DNA of 64,000 bases, taken from the human T2T-CHM13v2.0 reference genome, Homo sapiens. Position numbers and translations under genes: made by a program. Positions 31,601 to 64,000 of this stretch are shown piece by piece. The stretch spans positions 10,912,001 to 10,976,000 of the forward strand of contig CP068257.2 of NCBI GenBank assembly GCA_009914755.4, in the 5' to 3' direction. The notes under the pieces are model-generated. The model did not search any database. It was not told the origin of the DNA and saw only the letters and a program-made list of their open reading frames with translations. Position 1 is the first letter of the stretch; each line of letters starts with the position of its first letter.

Positions 31601-31812
31601 CTGTGTATTATATACTGTACATAAAATATCAAAGTACCCAAAATATATATTGTAAACTGTACATAAAATATCAAAGTAGCCAAAATGTATATTGTATACT
31701 GTACATAAAATATAAAAGTACCCCAAATATATATTATATACTGTACACAAAATATCAAAGTACCCATAATACATATTATATACTGTACATAAAATATCAA
31801 AGGACCCAAAAT

Positions 31813-43800: not shown

Positions 43801-45512
43801 TACATAAAATATCAAAGTACCCAAAATATATATTGTACACTGCACATAAAATATGAAGCTACATCAAAGATATATTATATTCTGTACATAAAATATCAAA
43901 GTACACCAAGTATATATTATATGCTGTACATAATATATTAAAGTCGACCAAATATATATTACATACTGTACAAAAAATATGAAGGTACATCAAATATATA
44001 TTATATGCTGCACATAAAATATCAAAGTACCCAAAGTATGTATTATATACTGTACATAAAATATCAAAATACCCAAAGTATATATTATATACTATACATA
44101 CAATATAAAATACCCCAAATATATATTATATGCTGTACATAAAATATCAAAGTACACAAAATATGTATTATGTACTGTACATAAAATATCAAAGGACCGA
44201 AAATATATATTATATACTGTACATAAAATATCAAAATACCCAAAATATATACTATATACTGTACATAAAATACCAAAGTACCCAAAGTATATATTATATA
44301 CCGTACAAAAAATATCAAAGTAGCCAAAGTATGTATTATACACTGTACATAATATATGAAAGTACCCAAACATTTATAATAAACTGTACATAAAATATCA
44401 ATGTACTCAAACTATATATTATGTTCGGTACATAACATATCAAAGTACCCATACTATATAGTATATACTGTACTTAAAATATCAAAATACCCAAAATATA
44501 TATTATATACGTTACATAAATTATCCAATACCCAAAGTATGTATTATATACTGTACTTAAAATAGCAAAGTTCCCAAAATATGTATTATATACTGTACAT
44601 AACAAATGAAAGTACCCAACCATTTATAGTAAACTCTACATAAAATACCAAAGTACCCAAACTGTGTATTATATACTGTCCATAAATTATCAAAGTACCC
44701 AAAATATATATTGTAAACTGTACATAAAATATCAAAGTAGCCAAAATGTATATTGTATACTGTACATAAAATATAAATGTACCCCAAATATATATTATAT
44801 ACTGTACACAAAATATCAAAGTACCCATAATACATATTATATACTGTACATAAAATATCAAAGGACCCAAAATAAACATTATATACTGTACATAAAATAT
44901 CCAAATACTCAAAATATATATTACATACTGTACATAAAATATCAAAGTACCCAAATTATGTATTATATACTGTACGTAAAATATCAGAGTACCCAAAATA
45001 TGCATTATATACTGTACATAAAATATGAAAGTAACAAAACATTTATAATAAACTGTACATAAAATATCAAAGTACTAAAACTATATATCATATACTGTAC
45101 ATAAAATATCAAAGTACCCAAACTGTGTATTATTATATACTGTCCATAAAATATCAAGGTACCTAAAATATATATTGCATACTGTACATAAAATATCAAA
45201 GTACCCAAAATATATACTATATACTGTACATAAAATATGAAGGTACATCAAATATATATTATATCCTGTACATAAAATATCAAAGTACACCTATTATATA
45301 TTGTGTACTGTACATAACATATTAAATCACCCAAATATATATTGTATACTGTATATAAAATATGAAGGTACTTCAAATATATATTATATGCTGCACATAA
45401 AATATCAAAGTACCCAAAGTATGCATTACATACTGTACATAAAATATCAAAGTACACAAATTATATATTATATAATGTACATAAAATATGTAGGTTCATA
45501 AAATATATTTTA
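31813..45512. repeat. HSat1A large block, copy 2 of the 31,812-bp-offset duplication
   Basis: Same evidence as for block 1-13700. The constant offset of 31,812 bp is not a multiple of 42 (31812/42 = 757.4), which is consistent with accumulated small indels inside units. Confidence 0.9.
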
Positions 45513-48500
45513 TATTCTGTACATAATATATCAAAGTACATCAAATATATATTATATACGGTACATAAAATATCAAAGTACCCAAAATATGTATTATTTA
45601 CTGTTCATAAAATATGAAAGTAACCAAACATTTATAATAAACTGTACATAAAATATCAAAGTACTCAATCTACATATTATATACAGTATATAAAATATCA
45701 AAGTACACAAATTGTATATTATATACTGTACATAATATATCAAAGTACCCGAATATATAGCATACTGTACATAAAATATCAAAGTACCCAAAATATATAT
45801 TGTATACTGTACATAAAATATGAAGGTACATCGAAGATATATTATATTGTGTACATAAAATATCAAAGTACACCAAATATATATTATATGCTGTACATAA
45901 TATATTAAAGTTGCCCATGTATACATTTTATACTGTACATAAAATATGAAGGCACATCAAATATATAGTATATGCTGCACATAAAATATCAAAGTACCCA
46001 AAGTATGTAATATATACTGTACATAATATATCAAAGTACCAAAAGTATATATTACATACTGTAAATAAAATATGAAGGTACCTCAAATATACATTATATT
46101 CTGTACATAAAATATCAAAGTACACCAAATATATACTATATACTGTACATAAAATATTAAATTACCCACAATATGTATTTTATTGTGTACATAAAATATG
46201 AAAGTAACCAATCATTTATAATAAACTGTACATAAAATATCAAAGTACTCAAACTGTATATTATATACTGTACATAAAGTATCAAAGTACCCAAACTGTG
46301 TAGTATATACTGTACATAATATATCAAGGTACCCAAAATATATATTGTAAACTGTAGATAAAATATCAAATTACCCAAAATATATATTATATACTGTACA
46401 TAAAATATGAAGGCACATCCAGTATATATTATATTCTGTACATAAAATATCAAAGTACACCAAATGTATATTATATACTGTACATAAAATATAAAAGTAC
46501 CCCAAGTATATATTATATACTCTACATAAAATATGAAAGTACCCAAAATATATATTATATACTGTACATAAAATATCAAAATACCCATAGTATGTATTAT
46601 ATCCTGTACATAAAATATGAAGGTACATCTAATATATATTATATTCTGCACATAAAATATCATATTACACCAAATATATATTATATACTGTACATAAAAG
46701 ATGAAAGTACATCAAATATATATTATATGCTGCACATAAAATATAAAAGTCCCCAAAGTTTGTATTATATTCTGTACATAAAATATCAAAGTATCCAAAG
46801 TGTATATTATATACTGTACATAAAATATGAAGGTACATCCAATACATATTATATTCTGTACGTAAAATATCAAAGTACACCAAGTATATATTATATACTG
46901 TACATAAAATATTAAATTACCCAAAATATGTATTGTATACTGTACATAAAATATGAAAGTATCCAAACATTTATAATAAACTGTACATAAAATATCAAAG
47001 TACTCAAACTGTGTATTATATACTGTACATAAAGCATCCAAGTACCCAAACTGTGTAGCATATACTGTACATAAAATATCAAGGTACCCAAAATATATAG
47101 TGTAAACTGTAGATAAAATATCAAAGTACCCAAAGTATACATTATATACTCTACATAAAATATCAAAATACGCAAAATATATATTGTATACTGTACATAA
47201 AATATCAAAGTATCCAAACTATATATTATGTACTGTACATAAAATATCAAAGTACCCAAAGTGTGTATTATACACTGCATATAAAATATGAAGGTACATA
47301 AAATATATATTGTATTCTGTACATAAAATATCAAATTACACCAAATATATATTATATAGTGTACATAATATATTAAAGTCTACCAAATATATATTATATA
47401 CTGTACATAAAATATGAAGGTACATCAAATATATATTATACGCTGCACATAAAATATCAAAGTACCCAAAGTATGTATTATATACTGTACATAAAATATC
47501 AAAGTACCCAAAGTCTATATTATATACTGTACATAAAATATAAAATACCCCAAATATATATTATATGCTGTACATGAAATATCAAAGTACACAAAATATG
47601 TATTATGTACTGTACATACAATATCAAAGGACCCAAAATATATATTATATACTGTACATAAAATATCAAAATATCCAAAATATATATTATATACTGTACA
47701 TAAAATACCAAAGTACCCAAAGTATATATTATATACCGTACAAAAAATATCAAAGTAGCCAAAATATGTATTATACACTGTACATAATATATGAAAGTAC
47801 CCAAACATTTATAATAAACTGTACATAAAATATCAATGTACTCAAACTATATATTATGTGCGGTACATAACATATCAAATTACCCATACTATATAGTATA
47901 TACTGTACTTAAAATATCAAAATATCCAAAATATATATTATATACGTTACATAAACTATCAAATACACAAAGTATGTATTATATACTGTACATAAAATAG
48001 CAAAGTTCCCAAAATATGTATTATATACTGTACATAAAATATGAAAGTACCCAACCATTTATAATAAACTCTACATAAAATACCAAAGTACCCAAACTGT
48101 GTATTATATACTGTCCATAAAATATCAAAGTACCCAAAATATATATTGTAAACTGTACATAAAATATCAAAGTAGCCAAAATATATATTGTATACTGTAC
48201 ATAAAATATAAAATACCCCAAATATATATTATATACTGTACATAAAATATCAAAGTACCCATAATACATATTATATACTGTACATAAAATATCAAAGGAC
48301 ACAAAATAAATATTATATACTGTACATAAAATATCCAAATACTCAAAATATATATTACATACTGTACATAAAATATCAAAGTACCCAAATTATGTATTAT
48401 ATACTGTACGTAAATTATCAGAGTACCCAAAATATGCATTATATACTGTACATAAAATATGAAATTAACAAAACATTTATAATAAACTGTACATAAAATA

Positions 48501-48699
48501 TCAAAGTACTCAAACTATATATCATATACTGTACATAAAATATCAAAGTACCCAAACTGTGTATTATTATATAGTGTATATAAAATATCACAGTACCTGA
48601 AATATATATTGTATACTGTACATAAAATATCAAAGTACCCAAAATATATACTATATACTGTCCATAAAATATGAAGGTTCATCAAATATATATTATATC

Positions 48700-50858
48700 C
48701 TGTACATAAAATATCAAACTACACCTATTAGATATTGTGTACTGTACATAATATATTAAATCCCCCAAATATATATTGTATACTGTATATAAAATATGAA
48801 GGTACTTCAAATTCATATTACATGCTGCACATAAAATATCAAACTACCCAAGGTATGCATTATATACTGTACATAAAATATCAAAGTACCCAAAGTGTAT
48901 ATTATATACTGTACATAAAATATGAAGTTTCATCAAATATATTTTATATTCGGCACATAAAATATCAAAGTACATCAAATATATATTATATACTGTACAT
49001 AAAATATCAAAGTACCAAAAATATGTATTATATACTGTACATAAAATATGAAAGTAACCATTTATAATAAACTGTACATAAAATATCAAAGTACTCAAAC
49101 TACATATTATATACAGTATATAAAATGTCAAAGTACCCAAACTGTATATTATATACTGTACATAATATATCAAAGTACCCGAATATATAGCATACTGTAC
49201 ATAAAATATCAAAGTACCCAAAATATATATTGTATACTGTACATAAAATATGAAGGTACATGAAAGATATATTATATTCTGTACATAAAATCTCAAAGTA
49301 CACCAAATATATATTATATGCTGTACATAATATATTAAAGTTGCCCAAATATATATTATATACTGTACATAAAATATGAAGGTACATCAAATATATATTA
49401 TATGCTGCACATAAAATATCAAAGTACCCAAAGTATGTATTATATACTGTACATAAAATATCAAAGTACCCAAATTATATATTATATACTGTACATAAAA
49501 TATAAAATACCCCAAATATATATTATATACTGTACATAAAATATCAAAGTACACAAAATATGTATTATATACTGTACATAAAATACCAAAGGACCCAAAG
49601 TATATATTATATACCGTACAAAAAATATCAAAATACCCAAAATATATATCATATACTGTACATAAAATATGAAAGTAACAAATTATTTATAATAAACTCT
49701 ACATAAAATATCAATGTACTCAAACTATATATTATGTGCGGTACACAAGATATCAAAGTACCCATACTATATAGTATATACTGTACTTAAAATATCAAAA
49801 TACCCAGAATATATATTATATACGTTAAATAAACTATCAAATACCCAAAGTATGTATTATATACTGTACATAAAACAGCAAAGTTCCCAAAATATATATT
49901 ATATACTGTACATAAAATATGAAGGAAAATCAAACATATATTATATTCTGTACATAAAATATAAAACTACCCCAAATATATATTATATACTGTACATGAA
50001 ATATAAAACTACCCCAAATATATATTATATACTGTACATAAAATATCAAAGTACCCAAAATATATATTATATACTGTACATAAAATATCAAAGTACACAA
50101 ACTTTATATTATAGAGTGTACATAAAATATCAAAGTAACAAAAATATATATTGTATACTGTAAATAAAATATCAATATACCCAAAATATATATTATGTAC
50201 TGTACATAAAATATCAAAGTACCCAAAATACGTATTATATACTGTACATAAAATATGAAAGTACATCAAATATATATTATATTCTGTATATAAAATATCA
50301 AATTACACCAAATATATTTTATAAATTGTACATGAAATATGAAGGTACATCAAATATATATTATATGCTGCACATAAAATATCAAAGTACTCAAAGTATG
50401 TATTATATATTGTACATAAAATATCAAAGTACTCAAAGTACATATTATATAGTGTACATGAAATATGAAGTTACATCAAATATATATTGTATTCTGTACA
50501 TAAAATATCAAAGTACACTAAATATATATTATATACTGTACTTAAAATATAAAATACCCCAAATATACATTATATACTGTACATAAAATATCAAAGTACC
50601 CAAAATATATATTATATACTGAACTTAAAATATCAAAGGACCCAAAATATATATTATACACTGTATATAAAATACCATAATAAGCAAAATATGTGTCATA
50701 TACTGTACATAAAATATGAAAGTACCCAAACATTTATAATCAACTGTACATAAAATATCAAAGTACTAAAACTATATATTATGTGCTGTATATAAAATAT
50801 CAAAGTACCCATACTATATATTATATACTGTACAAAAAATATCAAAATATATATTATA
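48700..50858. repeat. Degenerating edge of the HSat1A array, next to the alpha-satellite junction
   Basis: The sub-HOR marker pattern breaks down. The 48735 ORF is truncated relative to its paralogues, a novel divergent stretch at 49714-50163 contains 'cggtacacaagatatc' and 'aaataccataataagcaaaatatgtgtcata', and 42-bp units are more variable up to the junction. Confidence 0.6.
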
Positions 50859-51420
50859 TGAATTCCGTGCTTCCAACTAAATCCTCAAAGCAATCCAAAT
50901 ATCCACTTGCAGATTCCACAAAAAGAGGGTTTCAAATCTGCTCTATCAATAGCAAGGTTCAACTCTGTTAGTATAGGACACATATCACCAACAAGTTTCT
51001 GAGAATGCTTCTGTCTACTTTCTATGGGAGGATATTTCCTTTTTCACTGTAGGCGACAAAGCGATCAAATTGTCCATTCCATATACTACAAAAAGTGTGT
51101 TTCAAACCTGCTTTATGAAAGGTAATATTCATCTCTATGTGTTGAATGGAAATATCAGAAAGAAATTGCTGAGAATTCTGCTGTCTACATTTTATATGAA
51201 TTCCCGCTTCCAACGAAATCCTCAAATCAATCCAAATATCCACTTGCAGATTCCACAAAAAGAGTGTTTCAAAACTGCTCTATCAATAGAAAGGTTCAAC
51301 TCTTTTAGTTGAGAACACACATCACAAACAAGTTTCTGAGAATGCTTCTCTCTCGCTTTTATGGGAAGACGTTTCCTTTCCACCAAAGGCATCAAAGTGT
51401 TCCAAATGTCCACTTCCAGA
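50859..51420 (-). repeat. Diverged edge alpha monomers (about 3.3 monomers) in phase with the HOR
   Basis: Aligned by eye to the homologous HOR positions 56469-57030, the first two monomers differ at about 10% of sites. Examples are 'gaattccgtgcttccaactaaatcc' against 'gaattcccgcttccaacgaaatcc', and 'ttgtccattccatatactac' against 'atgtccacttccacaaactac'. The third monomer differs at about 3%. From about 51421 onward identity to the HOR is essentially complete. Confidence 0.75.
51202..51218 (-). promoter_or_regulatory. CENP-B box (17 bp, on the minus strand) in an edge alpha monomer
   Basis: The plus strand reads 'tcccgcttccaacgaaa', the reverse complement of 'tttcgttggaagcggga'. It fits the essential pattern nTTCGnnnnAnnCGGGn. 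Confidence 0.85.
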
Positions 51421-51542
51421 TTCTACCAAAAGAGTGTTTCAAACGTGCTCATAGTAAGGGAATGTTCAACTCTGTGACTTGAATGCAGATATCACCAAGT
51501 AGTTTCTAATAGTGCTTCTGTCTAGATTTTAGATGATGATAT

Positions 51543-51559
51543 TCCCGTTTCCAACGAAA
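51543..51559 (-). promoter_or_regulatory. CENP-B box (recurs every 1,870 bp, e.g. at about 53413 and 55283)
   Basis: The plus strand reads 'tcccgtttccaacgaaa', the reverse complement of 'tttcgttggaaacggga', which is the canonical CENP-B box. Confidence 0.85.
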
Positions 51560-52051
51560 TCGTTAGAGCTATCCAAATGTCCAGTTACAGTTTCTACCAA
51601 AAGGGTGTTTCCAAATTGCTGCATCAAAAGAAAGGTTCAACTCTGTTAGTTGAGGACACACATCACAAAGAAGTTTGTGAGAATGCTTCTGTCTAGATTT
51701 TGTATGACGATATTCCCTTTTCCAACGATATCGTTAAAGCAATCTAAATATCAATTTGCAGAATCCACAAAAATAGAGTTTCAAAGCTGCTCTGTAAAAA
51801 GAAAGGTTCCACTCTGTTAGCTGAGTACACACATCACAAACTTGTTTCTGAGAATCCTTCTGTCTCGTTTTTATGGGAAGATATTTACTTTTCCACCGTA
51901 GGCATCAAAGCGCTCCAAATGTCCACATCCAGATACTCCAGAAAGAGTGTTTCAAACCTGCTCTATGAAAGGGAATCTTCAACTCTATGAGTTGAATGCA
52001 GACATCAGAAAGAAATTTCTGAGAATGCTGCTGTCTACCTTTTATTTGAAT

Positions 52052-52068
52052 TCCCGCTTCCAACGAAA
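52052..52068 (-). promoter_or_regulatory. CENP-B box
   Basis: The plus strand reads 'tcccgcttccaacgaaa'. All essential positions (CCCG...T....CGAA on this strand) are conserved. Confidence 0.85.
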
Positions 52069-52393
52069 TCCTCCAAGCTATCCAAATATCCACCTGCATT
52101 TTCCACAACAAGAGTGTTTCAAAACTGCTCTATCAATAGAAATGTTCAACTCCTTTGGCTGGGTACACACATCACAAACAAGTTTCTGAGAATGCTTCTG
52201 TCTAGTTTTTATGGGAAGACATTCCCTTTTTCACCAAAGGCATCAAAGCGCTCCAAATGTCCACTTCCAGACACTACAAAAAGAGTGTTTCAAACGTGCT
52301 CTAAGAAAACGAATGTTCAACTCTGTGACTTGAATGCAGATATCACAGAGTAGTTTCTGAGAGGGCTTCTGTCTAGATTTTAGATGATGATAT

Positions 52394-52410
52394 TCCCGTT
52401 TCCAACGAAA
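52394..52410 (-). promoter_or_regulatory. CENP-B box
   Basis: The plus strand reads 'tcccgtttccaacgaaa'. Confidence 0.85.
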
Positions 52411-52731
52411 TCATTAGAGCTATCCAAATATCCACTTACAGTTTCTACAAAAAGAGTGTTTCCAAACTGCTGCATCAAAAGAGAGGTTCCACTCTGTTAG
52501 CTGAGTACACACATCACAAACTTGTTTCTCAGAATCCTTCTGTCTCGTTTTTATGGGAAGATATTTACTTTTTCACCGTAGGTATCAAAGCGCTCCAAAT
52601 GTCCACATCCAGATAGTACAGAAAGAGTTTTTCAAACCTGCTCTATGAAAGGGAATCTTCAACTCTATGAGTTGAATGCAGACATCAGAAAGAAATTTCT
52701 GAGAATGCTGCTGTCTACCTTTTATTTGAAT

Positions 52732-52748
52732 TCCCGCTTCCAACGAAA
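52732..52748 (-). promoter_or_regulatory. CENP-B box
   Basis: The plus strand reads 'tcccgcttccaacgaaa'. Confidence 0.85.
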
Positions 52749-53071
52749 TCCTCCAAGCTATCCAAATATCCACTTGCAGATTCCACAAAAAGAGTGTTTC
52801 AAAACTGCTCTCTATCAATGGCAAAGTTCAACTCTGTTAGTTGAGGACACATATCACCAACAAGTTTCTGAGAATGCTTCTGTCTATTTTTTATGGGAAG
52901 ATATTTCCTTTTTCACCGTAGGCGTCAAGGCGATCGAAATGTCCACTTCCACAAACTACAAAAAGAGTGTTTCAAACCTGCTCTATGAAAGGCCATGTTC
53001 ATCTCTATGAGTTGAATGGAAATATCCGAAAGAAATTTCTGGGAATGCTGCTGTCTAGTGTTTATACGAAT

Positions 53072-53088
53072 TCCCGCTTCCAACGAAA
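53072..53088 (-). promoter_or_regulatory. CENP-B box
   Basis: The plus strand reads 'tcccgcttccaacgaaa'. In the next-but-one monomer at about 51715 the homologous site reads 'tcccttttccaacgata', which has lost CCCG and CGAA and so is a dead box. Confidence 0.85.
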
Positions 53089-53290
53089 TCCTCAAAGCAA
53101 TCCAAATATCCACTTGCAGAATCCACAAAAAGAGTGTTTCAAAACTGCTCTATCAATAGAAAGGTTCAACTCTTTTAGTTGAGTACACACATCACGAACA
53201 AGTTTCTGAGAATGCTTCTGTCTGGCTTTTATTGGAAGACGTTTCCTTTTCACCAAAGGCATCAAAGTGCTCCAAATGTCCACTTCCAGA

Positions 53291-55160
53291 TTCTACCAAA
53301 AGAGTGTTTCAAACGTGCTCATAGTAAGGGAATGTTCAACTCTGTGACTTGAATGCAGATATCACCAAGTAGTTTCTAATAGTGCTTCTGTCTAGATTTT
53401 AGATGATGATATTCCCGTTTCCAACGAAATCGCTAGAGCTATCCAAATATCCAGTTACAGTTTCTACCAAAAGGGTGTTTCCAAATTGCTGCATCAAAAG
53501 AAAGGTTCAACTCTGTTAGTTGAGGACACACGTCACAAAGAAGTTTGTGAGAATGCTTCTGTCTAGATTTTGTATGACGATATTCCCTTTTCCAACGATA
53601 TCGTTAAAGCAATCTAAATATCAATTTGCAGAATCCACAAAAATAGAGTTTCAAAGCTGCTCTGTAAAAAGAAAGGTTCCACTCTGTTAGCTGAGTACAC
53701 ACATCACAAACTTGTTTCTGAGAATCCTTCTGTCTCGTTTTTATGGGAAGATATTTACTTTTTCACCGTAGGCATCAAAGCGCTCCAAATGTCCACATCC
53801 AGATACTCCAGAAAGAGTGTTTCAAACCTGCTCTATGAAAGGCAATCTTCAACTCTATGAGTTGAATGCAGACATCAGAAAGAAATTTCTGAGAATGCTG
53901 CTGTCTACCTTTTATTTGAATTCCCGCTTCCAACGAAATCCTCCAAGCTATCCAAATATCCACCTGCATTTTCCACAACAAGAGTGTTTCAAAACTGCTC
54001 TATCAATAGAAATGTTCAACTCCTTTGGCTGGGTACACACATCACAAACAAGTTTCTGAGAATGCTTCTGTCTAGTTTTTATGGGAAGACGTTCCCTTTT
54101 TCACCAAAGGCATCAAAGCGCTCCAAATGTCCACTTCCAGACACTACAAAAAGAGTGTTTCCAACGTGCCCTAAGAAAGCGAATGTTCAACTCTGTGACT
54201 TGAATGCAGATATCACAAAGTAGTTTCTGAGAGGGCTTCTGTCTAGATTTTAGATGATGATATTCCCGTTTCCAACGAAATCATTAGAGCTATCCAAATA
54301 TCCACTTACAGTTTCTACAAAAAGAGTGTTTCCAAACTGCTGCATCAAAAGAGAGGTTCCACTCTGTTAGCTGAGTACACACATCACAAACTTGTTTCTC
54401 AGAATCCTTCTGTCTCGTTTTTATGGGAAGATATTTACTTTTTCACCGTAGGCATCAAAGCGCTCCAAATGTCCACATCCAGATACTCCAGAAAGAGTGT
54501 TTCAAACCTGCTCTATGAAAGGGAATCTTCAACTCTATGAGTTGAATGCAGACATCAGAAAGAAATTTCTGAGAATGCTGCTGTCTACCTTTTATTTGAA
54601 TTCCCGCTTCCAACGAAATCCTCCAAGCTATCCAAATATCCACTTGCAGATTCCACAAAAAGAGTGTTTCAAAACTGCTCTCTATCAATGGCAAAGTTCA
54701 ACTCTGTTAGTTGAGGACACATATCACCAACAAGTTTCTGAGAATGCTTCTGTCTATTTTTTATGGGAAGATATTTCCTTTTTCACCGTAGGCGTCAAGG
54801 CGATCGAAATGTCCACTTCCACAAACTACAAAAAGAGTGTTTCAAACCTGCTCTATGAAAGGCCATGTTCATCTCTATGAGTTGAATGGAAATATCCGAA
54901 AGAAATTTCTGGGAATGCTGCTGTCTAGTGTTTATACGAATTCCCGCTTCCAACGAAATCCTCAAAGCAATCCAAATATCCACTTGCAGAATCCACAAAA
55001 AGAGTGTTTCAAAACTGCTCTATCAATAGAAAGGTTCAACTCTTTTAGTTGAGTACACACATCACGAACAAGTTTCTGAGAATGCTTCTGTCTGGCTTTT
55101 ATTGGAAGACGTTTCCTTTTCACCAAAGGCATCAAAGCGCTCCAAATGTCCACTTCCAGA
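53291..55160 (-). repeat. Alpha HOR copy 2 (variant type b)
   Basis: 1,870 bp downstream of copy 1. Diagnostic variants are 'ttcttccaaaag...gtgctcaaagtaaggg' (55161 onward) and 'gtttccaacgtgccctaagaaagcg'. Confidence 0.85.
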
Positions 55161-57030
55161 TTCTTCCAAAAGAGTGTTTCAAACGTGCTCAAAGTAAGGG
55201 AATGTTCAACTCTGTGACTTGAATGCAGATATCACCAAGTAGTTTCTAATAGTGCTTCTGTCTAGATTTCAGATGATGATATTCCCGTTTCCAACGAAAT
55301 CGTTAGAGCTATCCAAATATCCACTTACAGTTTCTACAAAAAGAGTGTTTCCAAACTGCTGCATCAAAAGAAAGGTTCAACTCTGTTAGTTGAGGACACA
55401 CATCACAAAGAAGTTTGTGAGAATGCTTCTGTCTAGATTTTGTATGACGATATTCCCTTTTCCAACGATATCGTTAAAGCAATCTAAATATCAATTTGCA
55501 GAATCCACAAAAATAGAGTTTCAAAGCTGCTCTGTAAAAATAAAGGTTCCACTCTGTTAGCTGAGTACACACATCACAAACTTGTTTCTGAGAATCCTTC
55601 TGTCTCGTTTTTATGGGAAGATATTTACTTTTTCACCGTAGGCATCAAAGCGCTCCAAATGTCCACATCCAGATACTCCAGAAAGACTGTTTCAAACCTG
55701 CTCTATGAAAGGGAATCTTCAACTCTATGAGTTGAATGCAGACATCAGAAAGAAATTTCTGAGAATGCTGCTGTCTACCTTTTATTTGAATTCCCGCTTC
55801 CAACGAAATCCTCCAAGCTATCCAAATATCCACTTGCATTTTCCACAAAAAGAGTGTTTCAAAACTGCTCTATCAATAGAAATGTTCAACTCCTTTAGCT
55901 GGGTACACACATCACAAACAAGTTTCTGAGAATGCTTCTGTCTAGTTTTTATGGGAAGACGTTCCCTTTTTCACCAAAGGCATCAAAGCGCTCCAAATGT
56001 CCACTTCCAGACACTACAAAAAGAGTGTTTCAAACGTGCTCTAAGAAAGCGAATGTTCAACTCTGTGACTTGAATGCAGATATCACAAAGTAGTTTCTGA
56101 GAGGGCTTCTGTCTAGATTTTAGATGATGATATTCCCGTTTCCAACGAAATCATTAGAGCTATCCAAATATCCACTTACAGTTTCTACAAAAAGAGTGTT
56201 TCCAAACTGCTGCATCAAAAGAGAGGTTCCACTCTGTTAGCTGAGTACACACATCACAAACTTGTTTCTCAGAATCCTTCTGTCTCGTTTTTATGGGAAG
56301 ATATTTACTTTTTCACCGTAGGCATCAAAGCGCTCCAAATGTCCACATCCAGATACTCCAGAAAGAGTGTTTCAAACCTGCTCTATGAAAGGGAATCTTC
56401 AACTCTATGAGTTGAATGCAGACATCAGAAAGAAATTTCTGAGAATGCTGCTGTCTACCTTTTATTTGAATTCCCGCTTCCAACGAAATCCTCCAAGCTA
56501 TCCAAATATCCACTTGCAGATTCCACAAAAAGAGTGTTTCAAAACTGCTCTCTATCAATGGCAAAGTTCAACTCTGTTAGTTGAGGACACATATCACCAA
56601 CAAGTTTCTGAGAATGCTTCTGTCTATTTTTTATGGGAAGATATTTCCTTTTTCACCGTAGGCGTCAAGGCGATCGAAATGTCCACTTCCACAAACTACA
56701 AAAAGAGTGTTTCAAACCTGCTCTATGAAAGGCGATGTTCATCTCTATGAGTTGAATGGAAATATCCGAAAGAAATTTCTGGGAATGCTGCTGTCTAGTT
56801 TTTATATGAATTCCCGCTTCCAACGAAATCCTCAAAGCAATCCAAATATCCACTTGCAGAATCCACAAAAAGATTGTTTCAAAACTGCTCTATCAATAGA
56901 AAGGTTCAACTCTTTTAGTTGAGTACACACATCACAAACAAGTTTCTGAGAATGCTTCTGTCTGGCTTTTATTGGAAGACGTTTCCTTTTCACCAAAGGC
57001 ATCAAAGTGCTCCAAATGTCCACTTCCAGA
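55161..57030 (-). repeat. Alpha HOR copy 3 (variant type c)
   Basis: Diagnostic variants are 'gtggtcgaagtaaggg' (57051-57070), 'ggcgatgttcatctc', 'tagtttttatatgaattccc', 'agactgtttc' and 'tcctttagctgg'. Confidence 0.85.
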
Positions 57031-58896
57031 TTCTTCCAAAAGAGTGTTTCAAACGTGGTCGAAGTAAGGGAATGTTCAACTCTGTGACTTGAATGCAGAT
57101 ATCACCAAGTAGTTTCTAATAGTGCTTCTGTCTACATTTTAGATGATGATATTCCCGTTTCCAACGAAATCGTTAGAGCTATCCAAATATCCAGTTACAG
57201 TTTCTACCAAAAGGGTGTTTCCAAATTGCTGCATCAAAAGAAAGGTTCAACTCTGTTAGTTGAGGACACACATCACAAAGAAGTTTGTGAGAATGCTTCT
57301 GTCTAGATTTTGTATGACGATATTCCCTTTTCCAACGATATCGTTAAAGCAATCTAAATATCAATTTGCAGAATCCACAAAAATAGAGTTTCAAAGCTGC
57401 TCTGTAAAAAGAAAGGTTCCACTCTGTTAGCTGAGTACACACATCACAAACTTGTTTCTGAGAATCCTTCTGTCTCGTTTTTATGGGAAGATATTTACTT
57501 TTCCACCGTAGGCATCAAAGCGCTCCAAATGTCCACATCCAGATACTCCAGAACGAGTGTTTCAAACCTGCTCTATGAAAGGGAATCTTCAACTCTATGA
57601 GTTGAATGCAGACATCAGAAAGAAATTTCTGAGAATGCTGCTGTCTACCTTTTATTTGAATTCCCGCTTCCAACGAAATCCTCCAAGCTATCCAAATATC
57701 CACCTGCATTTTCCACAACAAGAGTGTTTCAAAACTGCTCTATCAATAGAAATGTTCAACTCCTTTGGCTGGGTACACACATCACAAACAAGTTTCTGAG
57801 AATGCTTCTGTCTAGTTTTTATGGGAAGACGTTCCCTTTTTCACCAAAGGCATCAAAGCGCTCCAAATGTCCACTTCCAGACACTACAAAAAGAGTGTTT
57901 CCAACGTGCCCTAAGAAAGCGAATGTTCAACTCTGTGACTTGAATGCAGATATCACAAAGTAGTTTCTGAGAGGGCTTCTGTCTAGATTTTAGATGATGA
58001 TATTCCCGTTTCCAACGAAATCATTAGAGCTATCCAAATATCCACTTACAGTTTCTACAAAAAGAGTGTTTCCAAACTGCTGCATCAAAAGAGAGGTTCC
58101 ACTCTGTTAGCTGAGTACACACATCACAAACTTGTTTCTCAGAATCCTTCTGTCTCGTTTTTATGGGAAGATATTTACTTTTTCACCGTAGGCATCAAAG
58201 CGCTCCAAATGTCCACATCCAGATAGTACAGAGTTTTTCAAACCTGCTCTATGAAAGGGAATCTTCAACTCTATGAGTTGAATGCAGACATCAGAAAGAA
58301 ATTTCTGAGAATGCTGCTGTCTACCTTTTATTTGAATTCCCGCTTCCAACGAAATCCTCCAAGCTATCCAAATATCCACTTGCAGATTCCACAAAAAGAG
58401 TGTTTCAAAACTGCTCTCTATCAATGGCAAAGTTCAACTCTGTTAGTTGAGGACACATATCACCAACAAGTTTCTGAGAATGCTTCTGTCTATTTTTTAT
58501 GGGAAGATATTTCCTTTTTCACCGTAGGCGTCAAGGCGATCGAAATGTCCACTTCCACAAACTACAAAAAGAGTGTTTCAAACCTGCTCTATGAAAGGCC
58601 ATGTTCATCTCTATGAGTTGAATGGAAATATCCGAAAGAAATTTCTGGGAATGCTGCTGTCTAGTGTTTATACGAATTCCCGCTTCCAACGAAATCCTCA
58701 AAGCAATCCAAATATCCACTTGCAGAATCCACAAAAAGAGTGTTTCAAAACTGCTCTATCAATAGAAAGGTTCAACTCTTTTAGTTGAGTACACACATCA
58801 CGAACAAGTTTCTGAGAATGCTTCTGTCTGGCTTTTATTGGAAGACGTTTCCTTTTCACCAAAGGCATCAAAGTGCTCCAAATGTCCACTTCCAGA
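57031..58896 (-). repeat. Alpha HOR copy 4 (type a; 1,866 bp, carries a 4-bp deletion)
   Basis: 'agatagtacagagtttttcaaacc' at about 58221-58244, against 'agatagtacagaaagagtttttcaaacc' in copy 1 at 52611. The loss of 'aaag' shortens the copy to 1,866 bp. Confidence 0.85.
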
Positions 58897-60766
58897 TTCT
58901 ACCAAAAGAGTGTTTCAAACGTGCTCATAGTAAGGGAATGTTCAACTCTGTGACTTGAATGCAGATATCACCAAGTAGTTTCTAATAGTGCTTCTGTCTA
59001 GATTTTAGATGATGATATTCCCGTTTCCAACGAAATCGCTAGAGCTATCCAAATATCCAGTTACAGTTTCTACCAAAAGGGTGTTTCCAAATTGCTGCAT
59101 CAAAAGAAAGGTTCAACTCTGTTAGTTGAGGACACACGTCACAAAGAAGTTTGTGAGAATGCTTCTGTCTAGATTTTGTATGACGATATTCCCTTTTCCA
59201 ACGATATCGTTAAAGCAATCTAAATATCAATTTGCAGAATCCACAAAAATAGAGTTTCAAAGCTGCTCTGTAAAAAGAAAGGTTCCACTCTGTTAGCTGA
59301 GTACACACATCACAAACTTGTTTCTGAGAATCCTTCTGTCTCGTTTTTATGGGAAGATATTTACTTTTCCACCGTAGGCATCAAAGCGCTCCAAATGTCC
59401 ACATCCAGATACTCCAGAACGAGTGTTTCAAACCTGCTCTATGAAAGGGAATCTTCAACTCTATGAGTTGAATGCAGACATCAGAAAGAAATTTCTGAGA
59501 ATGCTGCTGTCTACCTTTTATTTGAATTCCCGCTTCCAACGAAATCCTCCAAGCTATCCAAATATCCACCTGCATTTTCCACAACAAGAGTGTTTCAAAA
59601 CTGCTCTATCAATAGAAATGTTCAACTCCTTTGGCTGGGTACACACATCACAAACAAGTTTCTGAGAATGCTTCTGTCTAGTTTTTATGGGAAGACGTTC
59701 CCTTTTTCACCAAAGGCATCAAAGCGCTCCAAATGTCCACTTCCAGACACTACAAAAAGAGTGTTTCCAACGTGCCCTAAGAAAGCGAATGTTCAACTCT
59801 GTGACTTGAATGCAGATATCACAAAGTAGTTTCTGAGAGGGCTTCTGTCTAGATTTTAGATGATGATATTCCCGTTTCCAACGAAATCATTAGAGCTATC
59901 CAAATATCCACTTACAGTTTCTACAAAAAGAGTGTTTCCAAACTGCTGCATCAAAAGAGAGGTTCCACTCTGTTAGCTGAGTACACACATCACAAACTTG
60001 TTTCTCAGAATCCTTCTGTCTCGTTTTTATGGGAAGATATTTACTTTTTCACCGTAGGCATCAAAGCGCTCCAAATGTCCACATCCAGATACTCCAGAAA
60101 GAGTGTTTCAAACCTGCTCTATGAAAGGGAATCTTCAACTCTATGAGTTGAATGCAGACATCAGAAAGAAATTTCTGAGAATGCTGCTGTCTACCTTTTA
60201 TTTGAATTCCCGCTTCCAACGAAATCCTCCAAGCTATCCAAATATCCACTTGCAGATTCCACAAAAAGAGTGTTTCAAAACTGCTCTCTATCAATGGCAA
60301 AGTTCAACTCTGTTAGTTGAGGACACATATCACCAACAAGTTTCTGAGAATGCTTCTGTCTATTTTTTATGGGAAGATATTTCCTTTTTCACCGTAGGCG
60401 TCAAGGCGATCGAAATGTCCACTTCCACAAACTACAAAAAGTGTGTTTCAAACCTGCTCTATGAAAGGCCATGTTCATCTCTATGAGTTGAATGGAAATA
60501 TCCGAAAGAAATTTCTGGGAATGCTGCTGTCTAGTGTTTATACGAATTCCCGCTTCCAACGAAATCCTCAAAGCAATCCAAATATCCACTTGCAGAATCC
60601 ACAAAAAGAGTGTTTCAAAACTGCTCTATCAATAGAAAGGTTCAACTCTTTTAGTTGAGTACACACATCACGAACAAGTTTCTGAGAATGCTTCTGTCTG
60701 GCTTTTATTGGAAGACGTTTCCTTTTCACCAAAGGCATCAAAGCGCTCCAAATGTCCACTTCCAGA
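58897..60766 (-). repeat. Alpha HOR copy 5 (type b)
   Basis: Carries the same diagnostic variants as copy 2, e.g. 'gtgctcaaagtaaggg' at about 60791 and 'tttcagatgatg'. Confidence 0.85.
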
Positions 60767-62636
60767 TTCTTCCAAAAGAGTGTTTCAAACGTGCTCAAAG
60801 TAAGGGAATGTTCAACTCTGTGACTTGAATGCAGATATCACCAAGTAGTTTCTAATAGTGCTTCTGTCTAGATTTCAGATGATGATATTCCCGTTTCCAA
60901 CGAAATCGTTAGAGCTAAGCAAATATCCAGTTACAGTTTCTACCAAAAGGGTGTTTCCAAATTGCTGCATCAAAAGAAAGGTTCAACTCTGTTAGTTGAG
61001 GACACACATCACAAAGAAGTTTGTGAGAATGCTTCTGTCTAGATTTTGTATGACGATATTCCCTTTTCCAACGATATCGTTAAAGCAATCTAAATATCAA
61101 TTTGCAGAATCCACAAAAATAGAGTTTCAAAGCTGCTCTGTAAAAAGAAAGGTTCCACTCTGTTAGCTGAGTACACACATCACAAACTTGTTTCTGAGAA
61201 TCCTTCTGTCTCGTTTTTATGGGAAGATATTTACTTTTCCACCGTAGGCATCAAAGCGCTCCAAATGTCCACATCCAGATACTCCAGAACGAGTGTTTCA
61301 AACCTGCTCTATGAAAGGGAATCTTCAACTCTATGAGTTGAATGCAGACATCAGAAAGAAATTTCTGAGAATGCTGCTGTCTACCTTTTATTTGAATTCC
61401 CGCTTCCAACGAAATCCTCCAAGCTATCCAAATATCCACCTGCATTTTCCACAACAAGAGTGTTTCAAAACTGCTCTATCAATAGAAATGTTCAACTCCT
61501 TTGGCTGGGTACACACATCACAAACAAGTTTCTGAGAATGCTTCTGTCTAGTTTTTATGGGAAGACGTTCCCTTTTTCACCAAAGGCATCAAAGCGCTCC
61601 AAATGTCCACTTCCAGACACTACAAAAAGAGTGTTTCCAACGTGCCCTAAGAAAGCGAATGTTCAACTCTGTGACTTGAATGCAGATATCACAAAGTAGT
61701 TTCTGAGAGGGCTTCTGTCTAGATTTTAGATGATGATATTCCCGTTTCCAACGAAATCATTAGAGCTATCCAAATATCCACTTACAGTTTCTACAAAAAG
61801 AGTGTTTCCAAACTGCTGCATCAAAAGAGAGGTTCCACTCTGTTAGCTGAGTACACACATCACAAACTTGTTTCTCAGAATCCTTCTGTCTCGTTTTTAT
61901 GGGAAGATATTTACTTTTTCACCGTAGGCATCAAAGCGCTCCAAATGTCCACATCCAGATACTCCAGAAAGAGTGTTTCAAACCTGCTCTATGAAAGGGA
62001 ATCTTCAACTCTATGAGTTGAATGCAGACATCAGAAAGAAATTTCTGAGAATGCTGCTGTCTACCTTTTATTTGAATTCCCGCTTCCAACGAAATCCTCC
62101 AAGCTATCCAAATATCCACTTGCAGATTCCACAAAAAGAGTGTTTCAAAACTGCTCTCTATCAATGGCAAAGTTCAACTCTGTTAGTTGAGGACACATAT
62201 CACCAACAAGTTTCTGAGAATGCTTCTGTCTATTTTTTATGGGAAGATATTTCCTTTTTCACCGTAGGCGTCAAGGCGATCGAAATGTCCACTTCCACAA
62301 ACTACAAAAAGAGTGTTTCAAACCTGCTCTATGAAAGGCCATGTTCATCTCTATGAGTTGAATGGAAATATCCGAAAGAAATTTCTGGGAATGCTGCTGT
62401 CTAGTTTTTATATGAATTCCCGCTTCCAACGAAATCCTCAAAGCAATCCAAATATCCACTTGCAGAATCCACAAAAAGAGTGTTTCAAAACTGCTCTATC
62501 AATAGAAAGGTTCAACTCTTTTAGTTGAGTACACACATCACAAACAAGTTTCTGAGAATGCTTCTGTCTGGCTTTTATTGGAAGACGTTTCCTTTTCACC
62601 AAAGGCATCAAAGCGCTCCAAATGTCCACTTCCAGA
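60767..62636 (-). repeat. Alpha HOR copy 6 (type c)
   Basis: Carries the same diagnostic variants as copy 3, e.g. 'gtggtcgaagtaaggg' at about 62651 and 'tagtttttatatgaattccc' at about 62401. Confidence 0.85.
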
Positions 62637-64000
62637 TTCTTCCAAAAGAGTGTTTCAAACGTGGTCGAAGTAAGGGAATGTTCAACTCTGTGACTTGAAT
62701 GCAGATATCACCAAGTAGTTTCTAATAGTGCTTCTGTCTACATTTTAGATGATGATATTCCCGTTTCCAACGAAATCGTTAGAGCTAAGCAAATATCCAG
62801 TTACAGTTTCTACCAAAAGGGTGTTTCCAAATTGCTGCATCAAAAGAAAGGTTCAACTCTGTTAGTTGAGGACACACATCACAAAGAAGTTTGTGAGAAT
62901 GCTTCTGTCTAGATTTTGTATGACGATATTCCCTTTTCCAACGATATCGTTAAAGCAATCTAAATATCAATTTGCAGAATCCACAAAAATAGAGTTTCAA
63001 AGCTGCTCTGTAAAAAGAAAGGTTCCACTCTGTTAGCTGAGTACACACATCACAAACTTGTTTCTGAGAATCCTTCTGTCTCGTTTTTATGGGAAGATAT
63101 TTACTTTTCCACCGTAGGCATCAAAGCGCTCCAAATGTCCACATCCAGATACTCCAGAAAGAGTGTTTCAAACCTGCTCTATGAAAGGGAATCTTCAACT
63201 CTATGAGTTGAATGCAGACATCAGAAAGAAATTTCTGAGAATGCTGCTGTCTACCTTTTATTTGAATTCCCGCTTCCAACGAAATCCTCCAAGCTATCCA
63301 AATATCCACCTGCATTTTCCACAAAAAGAGTGTTTCAAAACTGCTCTATCAATAGAAATGTTCAACTCCTTTGGCTGGGTACACACATCACAAACAAGTT
63401 TCTGAGAATGCTTCTGTCTAGTTTTTATGGGAAGACGTTCCCTTTTTCACCAAAGGCATCAAAGCGCTCCAAATGTCCACTTCCAGACACTACAAAAAGA
63501 GTGTTTCAAACGTGCTCTAAGAAAGCGAATGTTCAACTCTGTGACTTGAATGCAGATATCACAAAGTAGTTTCTGAGAGGGCTTCTGTCTAGATTTTAGA
63601 TGATGATATTCCCGTTTCCAACGAAATCATTAGAGCTATCCAAATATCCACTTACAGTTTCTACAAAAAGAGTGTTTCCAAACTGCTGCATCAAAAGAGA
63701 GGTTCCACTCTGTTAGCTGAGTACACACATCACAAACTTGTTTCTCAGAATCCTTCTGTCTCGTTTTTATGGGAAGATATTTACTTTTTCACCGTAGGCA
63801 TCAAAGCGCTCCAAATGTCCACATCCAGATAGTACAGAAAGAGTTTTTCAAACCTGCTCTATGAAAGGGAATCTTCAACTCTATGAGTTGAATGCAGACA
63901 TCAGAAAGAAATTTCTGAGAATGCTGCTGTCTACCTTTTATTTGAATTCCCGCTTCCAACGAAATCCTCCAAGCTATCCAAATATCCACTTGCAGATTCC
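62637..64000 (-). repeat. Alpha HOR copy 7 (partial, type a; truncated by the window end)
   Basis: 'agatagtacagaaagagtttttc' at 63827 matches the type-a copy 1 at 52611. Confidence 0.8.

What the first reader, a model, noticed from the sequence alone, without database searches (positions are those of the whole stretch)
51421..64000. 11-mer (1,870 bp) alpha HOR organised into a strict 3-HOR (33-mer, 5,610 bp) supra-HOR
Successive HOR copies are not equivalent. Diagnostic variants cycle with period 3. Type a has 'agatagtaca...gagtttttc' and 'gtgctcatagtaaggg' (copies at 51421, 57031, 62637). Type b has 'gtgctcaaagtaaggg', 'tttcagatgatg' and 'ttcttccaaaag' (53291, 58897). Type c has 'gtggtcgaagtaaggg', 'ggcgatgttcatctc' and 'tagtttttatatgaattccc' (55161, 60767). 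The spurious ORFs reflect this: the 63-aa/76-aa/63-aa 'MDIWS...' series and the 'SVYT/SVYT/SFYM' series both have period 3. The partial copy at the array edge matches type c, consistent with the same phase. The true homogenisation unit here is therefore about 5.6 kb, not 1.87 kb. Some other variants (e.g. 'caaacgtgctctaag' against 'ccaacgtgccctaag') do not follow the 3-cycle, so there is additional mosaicism.
Basis: seen in the sequence. Interest (0 to 1): 0.65.

Follow-up and report, generated by a model that had tools for sequence, protein, structure and literature searches.

The report
Weak three-HOR cycle in centromeric satellite
This is the short-arm edge of the human chromosome 13/21 centromeric alpha-satellite array, where single-base variants partly repeat every third 1.87-kb unit; this is a real but leaky trace of a three-unit block duplication, of a kind already catalogued as "superHORs", and is ordinary.

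Summary
The window holds about 50.8 kb of 42-bp AT-rich satellite (HSat1A-like). It is followed by 3.3 diverged alpha monomers and then 6.7 copies of the D13Z1/D21Z1 11-mer HOR. Each monomer is 95-99% identical to the published T2T-CHM13 chr21 monomer consensus, in the same order, with 5 CENP-B boxes per HOR.

A period-3 signal exists. Divergence is 0.65% at lag 3, 0.93% at lag 1 and 1.09% at lag 2. Only 0.95% of copy-order permutations give a lag-3 value as low. Seven of 10 two-copy variant events sit at lag 3 (P=6e-4).

The cycle is not strict:
- Lag 6 is 0.95%.
- Six of 16 shared-variant events break the cycle.
- The advantage is concentrated in one 2.7-kb tract.
- h6 is closer to h5, h7, h2 and h4 than to h3.
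- Only 2.2 periods are visible.
Most of these errors are explained by a boundary offset of about 120 bp.

The best reading is a local tandem duplication of a three-HOR block that was later eroded by conversion and mutation. "SuperHORs" of 2-9 HORs and multi-HOR duplications in D21Z1 are already described. Interest is low.

The parts
5..50846 (.). 42-bp AT-rich satellite array (HSat1A/'SAR'-like), about 1215 copies, 22% G+C. It is the flanking context, not part of the cycle.
   Evidence: TRF gives period 42 and 80% matches. G+C is 0.22-0.23. HSat1A is described as a 42-bp, most AT-rich repeat that flanks the chr21 HOR array on the p-arm side. Multi-kb internal duplications are present.
50847..50870 (.). 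Junction between the 42-bp satellite and alpha satellite ('...ATATATTATATGAATTCCGTGC|TTCCAAC...'). The A/T-rich 'TATAT' is common to both repeats.
   Evidence: Read directly from the sequence.
50871..51420 (-). Diverged partial HOR copy (h0). It has about 3.3 monomers aligning to HOR columns 1317-1869 and is about 92% identical to every full copy.
   Evidence: Pairwise table: 40-43 substitutions in 553 columns. It carries one CENP-B box, at 51203.
51421..53290 (-). HOR copy h1, type a (1196G/1198A/1209T). Its first about 110 bp carry type-b-like alleles, so the cycle effectively starts near 51530.
53291..55160 (-). HOR copy h2, type b (143C, 242G; 5A and 32T).
   Evidence: Its monomers match the CHM13 chr21 types t2..t1 at 95-99%.
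55161..57030 (-). HOR copy h3, type c (110C, 1640T, 1647T, 1776A). It has 10 alleles not shared with other copies in the window. Six of these (columns 164, 178, 184, 196, 674, 737) are the commoner allele in other human samples.
57031..58896 (-). HOR copy h4, type a, 1866 bp. It has a 4-bp deletion at columns 1198-1201 and carries 28G, 31G and 105C.
58897..60766 (-). HOR copy h5, type b. It has only 4 substitutions against h2.
60767..62636 (-). HOR copy h6, type c at the four marker columns, but overall closer to h5, h7, h2 and h4 than to h3.
62637..64000 (-). HOR copy h7, type a, truncated by the window end (1364 bp). Its closest relative is h4 (8 differences).
52624..55311 (.). A 2,688-bp tract (h1:1204 to h3:151) that differs at only 4 positions from its lag-3 partner at 58230-60917. 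It crosses two HOR boundaries and is the core of the period-3 signal.
   Evidence: Identical runs of 1139, 992 and 475 bp at lag 3.
58230..60917 (.). The lag-3 partner of the tract above (h4:1204 to h6:151).
51203..63963 (-). 35 CENP-B-box core matches (TTCGNNNNANNCGGG), 5 per full HOR, all on the minus strand. None overlaps a variable column.
   Evidence: 0 expected by chance. Variable columns are listed.

Best explanation
The segment is the p-arm edge of the human D13Z1/D21Z1 (chromosome 13/21) alpha-satellite 11-mer HOR array, abutting HSat1A. Within it, a block of three neighbouring, slightly different HOR copies (a-b-c, about 5.6 kb) was tandemly duplicated once or twice. This happened in HOR register, by unequal exchange or replication-associated duplication (inferred). 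The result is a-b-c-a-b-c-a. Afterwards, point mutation, a 4-bp deletion and short-tract conversion or exchange with other HOR haplotypes eroded the copies unevenly. About 2.7 kb remains nearly identical at lag 3, and the rest is no more similar at lag 3 than at lag 1.

It is a small, decaying 'superHOR'-type pattern. It has no function of its own, and the CENP-B boxes are untouched.

Shown: the identity of the array, the period-3 excess and the mosaic. Inferred: the duplication mechanism and the order of events.
For: **Identity of the array**
- The 11 monomers match the 10 published CHM13 chr21 monomer types at 95-99%, in the same cyclic order, with t5 present twice.
- There are 5 CENP-B boxes per HOR.
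- The upstream flank is a 42-bp, 22% G+C satellite. This fits the reported HSat1a flank on the p-arm side of chr21 arrays and the large HSat1A array on chr13.

**Period 3**
- Lag-3 divergence is 0.646%, against 0.925% at lag 1 and 1.086% at lag 2. Lags 4 and 5 mirror lags 1 and 2 (0.901% and 1.144%).
- Only 0.95% of the 5040 copy orders give a lag-3 value as low. The (1,4)(2,5)(3,6) pairing is the best of 15 (37 differences against 44 for the next best).
- Ten of 16 shared-variant events cycle from about 51530 onward, and 7 of 10 doubletons lie at lag 3, P=6e-4.

**Block duplication rather than per-HOR events**
- Identical lag-3 runs of 1139 bp and 475 bp cross HOR boundaries.

**The variants are real**
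- They are substitutions, not homopolymer-length changes.
- An independent contaminant contig, L003, carries the type-c 3' markers followed in cis by the type-a 5' markers.

**Precedent**
- Duplications in units of 2-4 HORs are reported for CHM13 D21Z1.
- SuperHORs of 2-9 HORs are annotated in T2T-HG002.
Against: - Only 2.2 periods are visible.
- Lag 6 (h1-h7) is 0.953%, no better than lag 1.
- h1-h4 (15 differences) equals h1-h2 and h1-h5. h6 is nearer to h5, h7, h2 and h4 than to h3.
- Six of 16 shared events contradict the cycle.
- The variable sites are clustered and not independent, so the p-values are optimistic.
- L003 is a short-read contig and could be a consensus chimera.
- The source assembly is unknown, so read-level support cannot be checked.
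Confidence: 0.68

Rival explanations
1. The array here is a strict, extended 33-monomer supra-HOR. Its 5.6-kb unit, not the 1.87-kb HOR, is what is being homogenised, and the window shows the first periods of a long superHOR domain.
For: Lag 3 has the lowest mean divergence. Three marker sets cycle. h7 starts a third period as type a and is closest to h4. The c-to-a junction is seen in an independent sample. SuperHOR domains can occupy large fractions of some arrays.
Against: Lag-3 divergence (0.65%) is close to lag-1 divergence (0.93%). Lag 6 shows no advantage. Half of the span shows no lag-3 advantage. Six of 16 shared events break the cycle. h3 and h6 differ at 18 sites, whereas h5 and h6 differ at 11. 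The HG002 paper names chr8, chr15 and chr9 as the arrays with large superHOR fractions, not chr13 or chr21.
Confidence: 0.12
2. There was no block duplication. The apparent 3-cycle is a fortuitous ordering of a few pre-existing HOR haplotypes, shuffled by single-HOR-register unequal exchange and gene conversion at an old, heterogeneous array edge.
For: Many alleles that look 'private' or type-specific here are common alleles in other human samples. The transversion-rich, clustered variants suggest conversion tracts. There is reticulate sharing among h1, h4 and h7. Only seven copies are available.
Against: The permutation test gives p about 0.01 and the event-level test gives P=6e-4. A 2.7-kb tract crossing two HOR boundaries has only 4 differences at lag 3. 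That is hard to obtain from independent per-HOR events.
Confidence: 0.17
3. This is an assembly or sequencing artefact. Either a satellite segment was falsely duplicated, or the variants are base-calling errors.
For: Satellite arrays are prone to misassembly, and the source assembly is unknown.
Against: The lag-3 copies are not identical (45 differences). The variants are substitutions shared by two or three copies and are not enriched in long homopolymers. Several variant alleles and the c-to-a junction recur in unrelated data.
Confidence: 0.03

Closest known systems
SuperHORs as annotated in T2T-HG002 (PMC13477032): n-mers of 2-9 whole HORs with differing HORhap assignments, repeated at least 3 times
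   Same: The unit is a whole number of HORs (3). The members differ only by single-nucleotide HOR-haplotype variants. The units are arranged in tandem.
   Different: Only 2 full periods plus 0.73 of one HOR are visible, so the 'at least 3 consecutive repeats' rule is not met inside the window. The cycle is leaky. That paper highlights chr8, chr15 and chr9, not chr13 or chr21.
Multi-HOR duplication pattern in CHM13 D21Z1 (Gluncic et al. 2025, PMC12385485): CCCVCCCVCCV..., duplications in units of 2-4 HOR copies
   Same: It is the same HOR family (monomer types match at 95-99%) and has the same inferred process, duplication of blocks of a few HORs.
   Different: That pattern is marked by a structural variant copy in the central part of the array. 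The pattern here is marked only by substitutions, lies at the p-arm edge and has all-canonical 11-mers.
HOR-haplotypes and layered expansion (Altemose et al., bioRxiv 10.1101/2021.07.12.452052)
   Same: HOR copies fall into variant classes, and older, more divergent copies sit at the array flank. Here h0 is about 92% identical, and the edge copies carry alleles that are rare elsewhere.
   Different: HOR-haps describe broad domains, not a short periodic interleaving of three classes.
The '33mer HOR' of chromosome 21 (Gluncic et al. 2019, PMC6718397)
   Same: 33 monomers, about 5.6 kb, on an acrocentric chromosome.
   Different: It is a different object. It is 5,639 bp with 33 distinct monomers about 19% apart, copies are 5% apart, there are four copies in an hg38 contig, and it is reported absent from T2T-CHM13. 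The structure here is 3 x the 11-mer with 10 monomer types and under 1.5% between copies.
SuperHORs of CentromereArchitect (PMC8336445) and local-nested HORs of HiCAT (PMC10053651)
   Same: Both describe hierarchical repeat structure above or within the HOR level.
   Different: Both are defined on monomer strings, that is on structural variants or sub-HOR amplification, and not on single-nucleotide variants among canonical HORs.

Membership tests
Alpha satellite D13Z1/D21Z1 11-mer HOR (S2C13/21H1L; 'alpha21-I') | Tandem monomers of about 171 bp arranged in an 11-monomer, about 1.87-kb HOR | tested here: met
   TRF period 171. The autocorrelation peak is at 1870. Copies are 1870 bp. Monomers are 167-171 bp.
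Alpha satellite D13Z1/D21Z1 11-mer HOR (S2C13/21H1L; 'alpha21-I') | Monomer types and order as in the T2T-CHM13 chr21 canonical copy (1-2-3-4-5-6-7-8-5-9-10, one type used twice) | tested here: met
   Each monomer is 95-99% identical to one published type. The order along the + strand is t2..t8, t5, t9, t10, t1. The two t5 copies are 99% alike. The published consensus was read from a PDF and contains small errors.
Alpha satellite D13Z1/D21Z1 11-mer HOR (S2C13/21H1L; 'alpha21-I') | Regular CENP-B boxes in alternate (dimeric SF2) monomers | tested here: met
   There are 5 box cores per HOR, all on the minus strand. There are two monomer classes alternating with one irregularity. That this is a property of alpha21-I is from my own knowledge (Ikeno et al. 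1994) and was not checked in a paper here.
Alpha satellite D13Z1/D21Z1 11-mer HOR (S2C13/21H1L; 'alpha21-I') | Assignment to chromosome 13 versus chromosome 21, and to a particular assembly | not testable with these tools
   No human genome collection is available. Both chromosomes carry HSat1A next to this HOR family.
SuperHOR (definition of PMC13477032) | The unit is an n-mer of whole HORs, n = 2-9 | tested here: met
   n = 3. The lag-3 minimum and the mod-3 pattern of lags 1-5 support this.
SuperHOR (definition of PMC13477032) | At least one HOR of the n-mer has a different HORhap assignment | tested here: inconclusive
   Three marker-defined types exist. However, HORhap classes are defined by array-wide clustering, which a 12.6-kb sample cannot reproduce. 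By overall distance, h6 does not cluster with h3.
SuperHOR (definition of PMC13477032) | [quoted passage not shown] | tested here: not met
   Two full periods plus 1364 bp of a third lie inside the window. The sequence beyond 64000 is unavailable, so this criterion fails only for what can be seen.
33mer HOR of chr21 (Gluncic 2019) | 33 mutually distinct monomers (about 19% apart), 5,639-bp unit, about 5% between copies | tested here: not met
   The structure here has 10 monomer types repeated in three 11-mers, a 5,610/5,606-bp unit, and 0.2-1.4% between copies.
HSat1A (flank) | 42-bp unit, extreme A+T richness | tested here: met
   Period 42, 1214.6 copies. G+C is 22%. No reference HSat1A sequence was available for a direct alignment.

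The most novel reading that the evidence does not exclude
The p-arm edge of the D13Z1/D21Z1 array may carry a stable, population-shared 33-monomer superHOR layer. This would be an a-b-c trimer with its own c-to-a junction haplotype, as seen once in an unrelated sample. It would extend well beyond the window and represent an incipient new HOR unit forming from the 11-mer.
Probability: 0.1. Interest if true: 0.35.

Novelty: already known. Interest (0 to 1): 0.15.

Why it matters
It matters little for biology. The pattern is one more local example of how alpha-satellite arrays grow by duplicating blocks of a few HORs and then blur them by conversion. This process is already documented genome-wide through HOR-haps and superHORs, and in this very HOR family. 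The CENP-B boxes are unaffected and no function is implied.

Practical value:
- The a, b and c marker variants and the 4-bp deletion are usable anchors for validating assemblies, or for haplotyping the p-arm edge of cen13/cen21.
- The case shows that a visually convincing 'cycle' over two periods should be tested at several lags before a new repeat unit is declared.

Tried and rejected
1. **Memory lead.** I recalled the 'Discovery of 33mer in chromosome 21' paper. On reading it, that 33mer is a different, divergent HOR of 33 distinct monomers (5,639 bp, 5% between copies) found in hg38 only, so I rejected it as the same object.

2. **Whole-HOR BLAST against the concatenated chr21 consensus.** This gave only about 85% identity. 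The cause was that the paper lists the monomers individually reverse-complemented while ordering them along the + strand. Monomer-by-monomer comparison resolved this, giving 95-99%.

3. **Ungapped autocorrelation.** It puts 5606 (0.81) below 1870 (0.85) and puts 5610 at 0.42, because of the 4-bp deletion. It is misleading, so I used gapped alignment instead.

4. **Metagenome contigs as extra array samples.** The scan returned 67 human-contaminant contigs. Most are collapsed to 2 kb or less. The 47-kb contig BNJS01001333.1 is indel-rich (94-98% identity with many gap openings; L033 gave no hit at 93% or above) and is unusable for single-base periodicity. No contig contained the HSat1A junction.

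5. **Exact scans for the type-a motif** in genome contigs and viral contigs found nothing.

6. **HiCAT 'nested HORs' and CentromereArchitect 'superHORs'** turned out to be concepts based on structural variants, not on single-nucleotide variants.

7. **Protein tools were not used.** The ORFs are frame-open stretches of satellite that repeat with the HOR.

Full report
**What is in the window**

Base composition splits the window in two. Positions 1 to about 50,850 are 22-23% G+C, and the rest is about 39%. Tandem Repeats Finder reports a 42-bp repeat from 5 to 50846 (1214.6 copies, 80% matches) and a 171-bp repeat from 50871 to 63999. A 42-bp, extremely AT-rich satellite fits the description of HSat1A, formerly called 'SAR'. 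No reference HSat1A sequence was available for a direct alignment.

The 171-bp repeat is alpha satellite lying in reverse orientation on the + strand. All 35 CENP-B-box cores (TTCGNNNNANNCGGG) are on the minus strand, against 0 expected by chance.

**Which alpha satellite it is**

The array has a sharp 1870-bp periodicity. I cut one copy into its 11 monomers and compared them with the consensus monomers of the T2T-CHM13 chromosome 21 '11mer' array, published in Table S1 of PMC12385485.

- Every monomer matches one published type at 95-99% and the other types at 68-91%.
- The order along the + strand is t2-t3-t4-t5-t6-t7-t8-t5-t9-t10-t1. This is the published cyclic order, including the duplicated type t5, whose two copies are 99% alike.
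- There are five CENP-B boxes per HOR.

This is therefore the D13Z1/D21Z1 11-mer. A first whole-HOR BLAST gave only 85%. The reason is that the paper lists reverse-complemented monomers in + strand order.

Chr21 HOR arrays are reported to be flanked by HSat1a on the p-arm side, and chr13 carries a 5-Mb HSat1A array. The window is therefore the p-arm edge of cen21 or cen13, read from p to q. I cannot tell which chromosome or which assembly it comes from.

**The array edge**

Between the 42-bp satellite and the first homogeneous HOR lie about 3.3 monomers (50871-51420). They align to HOR columns 1317-1869 and are only about 92% identical to any copy (40-43 substitutions in 553 columns). The full copies are 98.45-99.79% identical to one another. 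A more diverged copy at the flank agrees with the layered-expansion picture of these arrays.

**Checking the period-3 claim**

A MAFFT alignment of the seven copies has 1870 columns and a single indel, a 4-bp deletion in h4. There are 43 variable columns.

Difference counts between pairs of copies, with the 4-bp deletion counted as one event:

| Lag | Pairs | Differences |
|---|---|---|
| 3 | h1-h4, h2-h5, h3-h6, h4-h7 | 15, 4, 18, 8 |
| 1 | h1-h2, h2-h3, h3-h4, h4-h5, h5-h6, h6-h7 | 15, 23, 26, 13, 11, 11 |

Pooled divergence by lag:

| Lag | Divergence |
|---|---|
| 1 | 0.925% |
| 2 | 1.086% |
| 3 | 0.646% |
| 4 | 0.901% |
| 5 | 1.144% |
| 6 | 0.953% |

Lag 3 is therefore the minimum, and lags 4 and 5 echo lags 1 and 2, as a 3-cycle predicts. 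Permuting the order of the seven copies gives a lag-3 divergence this low in 0.95% of the 5040 orders. Lag 1 and lag 2 are unremarkable under the same test (p = 0.48 and 0.94). Among the 15 ways of pairing the six full copies, (1,4)(2,5)(3,6) is the best, with 37 differences against 44 for the runner-up.

Merging neighbouring columns that show the same partition gives 16 shared-variant events.
- Six are fully periodic: column 110 {3,6}; columns 143 and 242 {2,5}; columns 1196-1209 {1,4,7}; columns 1640/1647 and 1776 {3,6}.
- Four are periodic for copies 2-7, but h1 deviates: columns 5, 28+31, 32 and 105. All lie in the first 110 bp of the unit.
- Six are not periodic: columns 152/153 {6,7}; 473 {2,3}; 524 {4,5,6}; 689 {3,7}; 872/880 {1,3,7}; 1848 {2,5,6}.
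- Seven of the ten two-copy events sit at lag 3, where 4/21 would be expected (binomial P = 6e-4).

The signal is real.

**Why it is not 'strict'**

- The single lag-6 comparison (h1-h7) shows no advantage.
- h1 is as far from h4 as from h2 or h5.
- h6 is closer to h5 and h7 (11 each), h2 (13) and h4 (14) than to its supposed twin h3 (18).
- Along the array, the lag-3 advantage is concentrated in one tract, 52624-55311 against 58230-60917. This is 2,688 bp with four differences, made up of identical runs of 1139, 992 and 475 bp, two of which cross HOR boundaries.
- In the first halves of h1 and h3, lag 3 (12 and 15 mismatches per 935 columns) is no better than lag 1 (10 and 17).
- Only 2.2 periods are visible.

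The statement that 5.6 kb rather than 1.87 kb is 'the true homogenisation unit' goes beyond the data.

Of the eight diagnostic strings, only 'agatagtaca...gagtttttc' (h1, h4, h7) and 'tagtttttatatgaattccc' (h3, h6) are assigned to the right copies.
- 'gtgctcatag' is in h1, h2 and h5.
- 'gtgctcaaag' and 'tttcagatgatg' are in h3 and h6.
- 'gtggtcgaag' is in h4 and h7.
- 'ttcttccaaaag' is in h3, h4, h6 and h7.
- 'ggcgatgttcatctc' is in h3 alone.

Most of these errors vanish if the unit boundary is placed about 120 bp downstream of the stated starts. They are therefore errors of bookkeeping rather than of substance. With that phase the cycle starts near 51530, and the h1 deviation lies outside it.

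The ORF series do cycle (63/63/76 aa; SVYT/SVYT/SFYM; also 121/127/127 aa), but they only re-express columns 5/32, 1640/1647 and 1196-1209. The ORFs recur with the satellite, and I treat them as non-coding.

The edge copy h0 does carry the three type-c alleles (1640T, 1647T, 1776A). Being 8% diverged from all copies, it does not show that the cycle continues. It is equally consistent with these being older alleles.

**Are the variants errors?**

All are substitutions except one 4-bp deletion. They are not enriched in long homopolymers, 8 of 40 involve CpG, and transversions (22) outnumber transitions (18). Several are tightly clustered (28/31/32; 152/153; 872/880; 1196/1198/1209; 1640/1647). 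I infer that this points to conversion tracts or complex events rather than independent point mutations.

A scan of metagenome contigs for the t2-monomer motif returned 67 human-contaminant contigs. In these contigs:
- 'gtgctcaaag' (the h3/h6 form) is the overwhelming majority, 75 of 76 occurrences, and 'gtggtcgaag' occurs once.
- Six of h3's ten 'private' alleles (columns 164, 178/184, 196, 674, 737), h1's 801A and 689A (shared by h3 and h7) are the commoner alleles. Some short motifs may also hit paralogous monomers, so these counts are approximate.
- Contig L003 carries 1640T-1647T-1776A followed, in the next HOR, by 5T-28G-31G-32A-105C. This is the type-c to type-a junction in cis.

So the variants are genuine human HOR-haplotype alleles. 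Much of the mosaicism is re-assortment of existing alleles rather than new mutation. The c-to-a adjacency is not peculiar to this assembly, with the caveat that L003 is a short-read contig.

**Mechanism**

The simplest account has three steps. A block of three adjacent, slightly different HORs was duplicated in tandem, in HOR register. A further partial or whole round gave the third 'a'. Uneven erosion by conversion or exchange with other HOR haplotypes, point mutation and a 4-bp deletion followed. The long identical lag-3 runs that cross HOR boundaries favour a block event over independent per-HOR events.

The duplication mechanism is inferred from general models of satellite evolution and is not shown here. 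It could be unequal sister-chromatid exchange or replication-coupled duplication. Nothing suggests a function. The CENP-B boxes are invariant and the stretch lies at the array margin.

**Comparison with what is known**

- The T2T-HG002 centromere paper defines and maps 'superHORs' as n-mers of 2-9 whole HORs that differ in HORhap and are repeated at least three times. They occupy up to about half of the chr8, chr15 and chr9 arrays. The pattern here is of that kind with n = 3, but it does not reach three full repeats inside the window and it is leaky.
- For the same HOR family, Gluncic et al. 2025 describe duplication in units of two to four HORs in CHM13 D21Z1 (CCCVCCCV...).
- HOR-haps and layered expansion are described genome-wide.
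- The 2019 'chromosome 21 33mer' is unrelated.
- CentromereArchitect superHORs and HiCAT nested HORs are defined on structural variants.

**Verdict**

The object is a known array showing a known type of local multi-HOR periodicity, so interest is low. The decisive test is to extend the analysis along the same assembly and across other T2T haplotypes.

Noticed in passing
window 5-50846: The 42-bp HSat1A-like array is not flat. Nearest-copy distances of exact 40-mers peak at 14984, 16828, 3306/3307, 6740/6741, 3013, 3434-3436, 9754, 6320 and 10508 bp. Patches of 2-4 kb reach about 90% ungapped identity at these lags, against a 30-40% background. This indicates nested multi-kb duplications. The literature mentions 9-mer nested repeats for HSat1A, which does not obviously correspond to these lags.
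   Followed up: partly
window 50847-51420: The junction between HSat1A and alpha is abrupt. The alpha side begins inside a CENP-B-box-bearing (t9-type) monomer, and 'TATAT' is common to both repeats at the join, which may be microhomology. The first 3.3 monomers are about 92% identical to the HOR, after which identity jumps to about 99% with no monomeric or intermediate layer.
   Followed up: partly
window 55161-57030 (h3) and 51421-53290 (h1): Alleles that look private to h3 (columns 164, 178, 184, 196, 674, 737) or h1 (column 801), and 689A shared by h3 and h7, are the commoner alleles in 67 unrelated human-contaminant contigs. The other copies in the window therefore carry the unusual, edge-specific alleles, and h3 looks like a patchwork with mainstream tracts.
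   Followed up: partly
window 52611-52640, 58221-58240, 63827-63850: The type-a marker is a cluster of three transversions within 14 bp (C>G, C>A, G>T) in the second t5 monomer. In h4 a 4-bp deletion sits inside the same cluster. The motif was found in none of the metagenome contigs or in genome or viral contig scans. This may be a single complex mutational event at a fragile spot.
   Followed up: partly
window 51421-64000: The substitution spectrum among HOR copies is transversion-rich (22 transversions against 18 transitions; 8 of 40 at CpG) and spatially clustered. This is unlike ordinary point mutation and suggests conversion from diverged templates.
   Followed up: no
L001-L067 (metagenome contigs); L027, L033 and L060 = BNJS01001333.1: Sixty-seven public 'metagenome' contigs are human D13Z1/D21Z1 alpha-satellite contamination. 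One 47-kb contig shows motif spacings of about 1705-1724 bp rather than 1870 bp and only 94-98% identity to the HOR, with many gaps. It is either noisy long-read assembly or a 10-mer variant array. Several 4-7 kb contigs (L017, L030, L059) match the HOR over only part of their length.
   Followed up: partly
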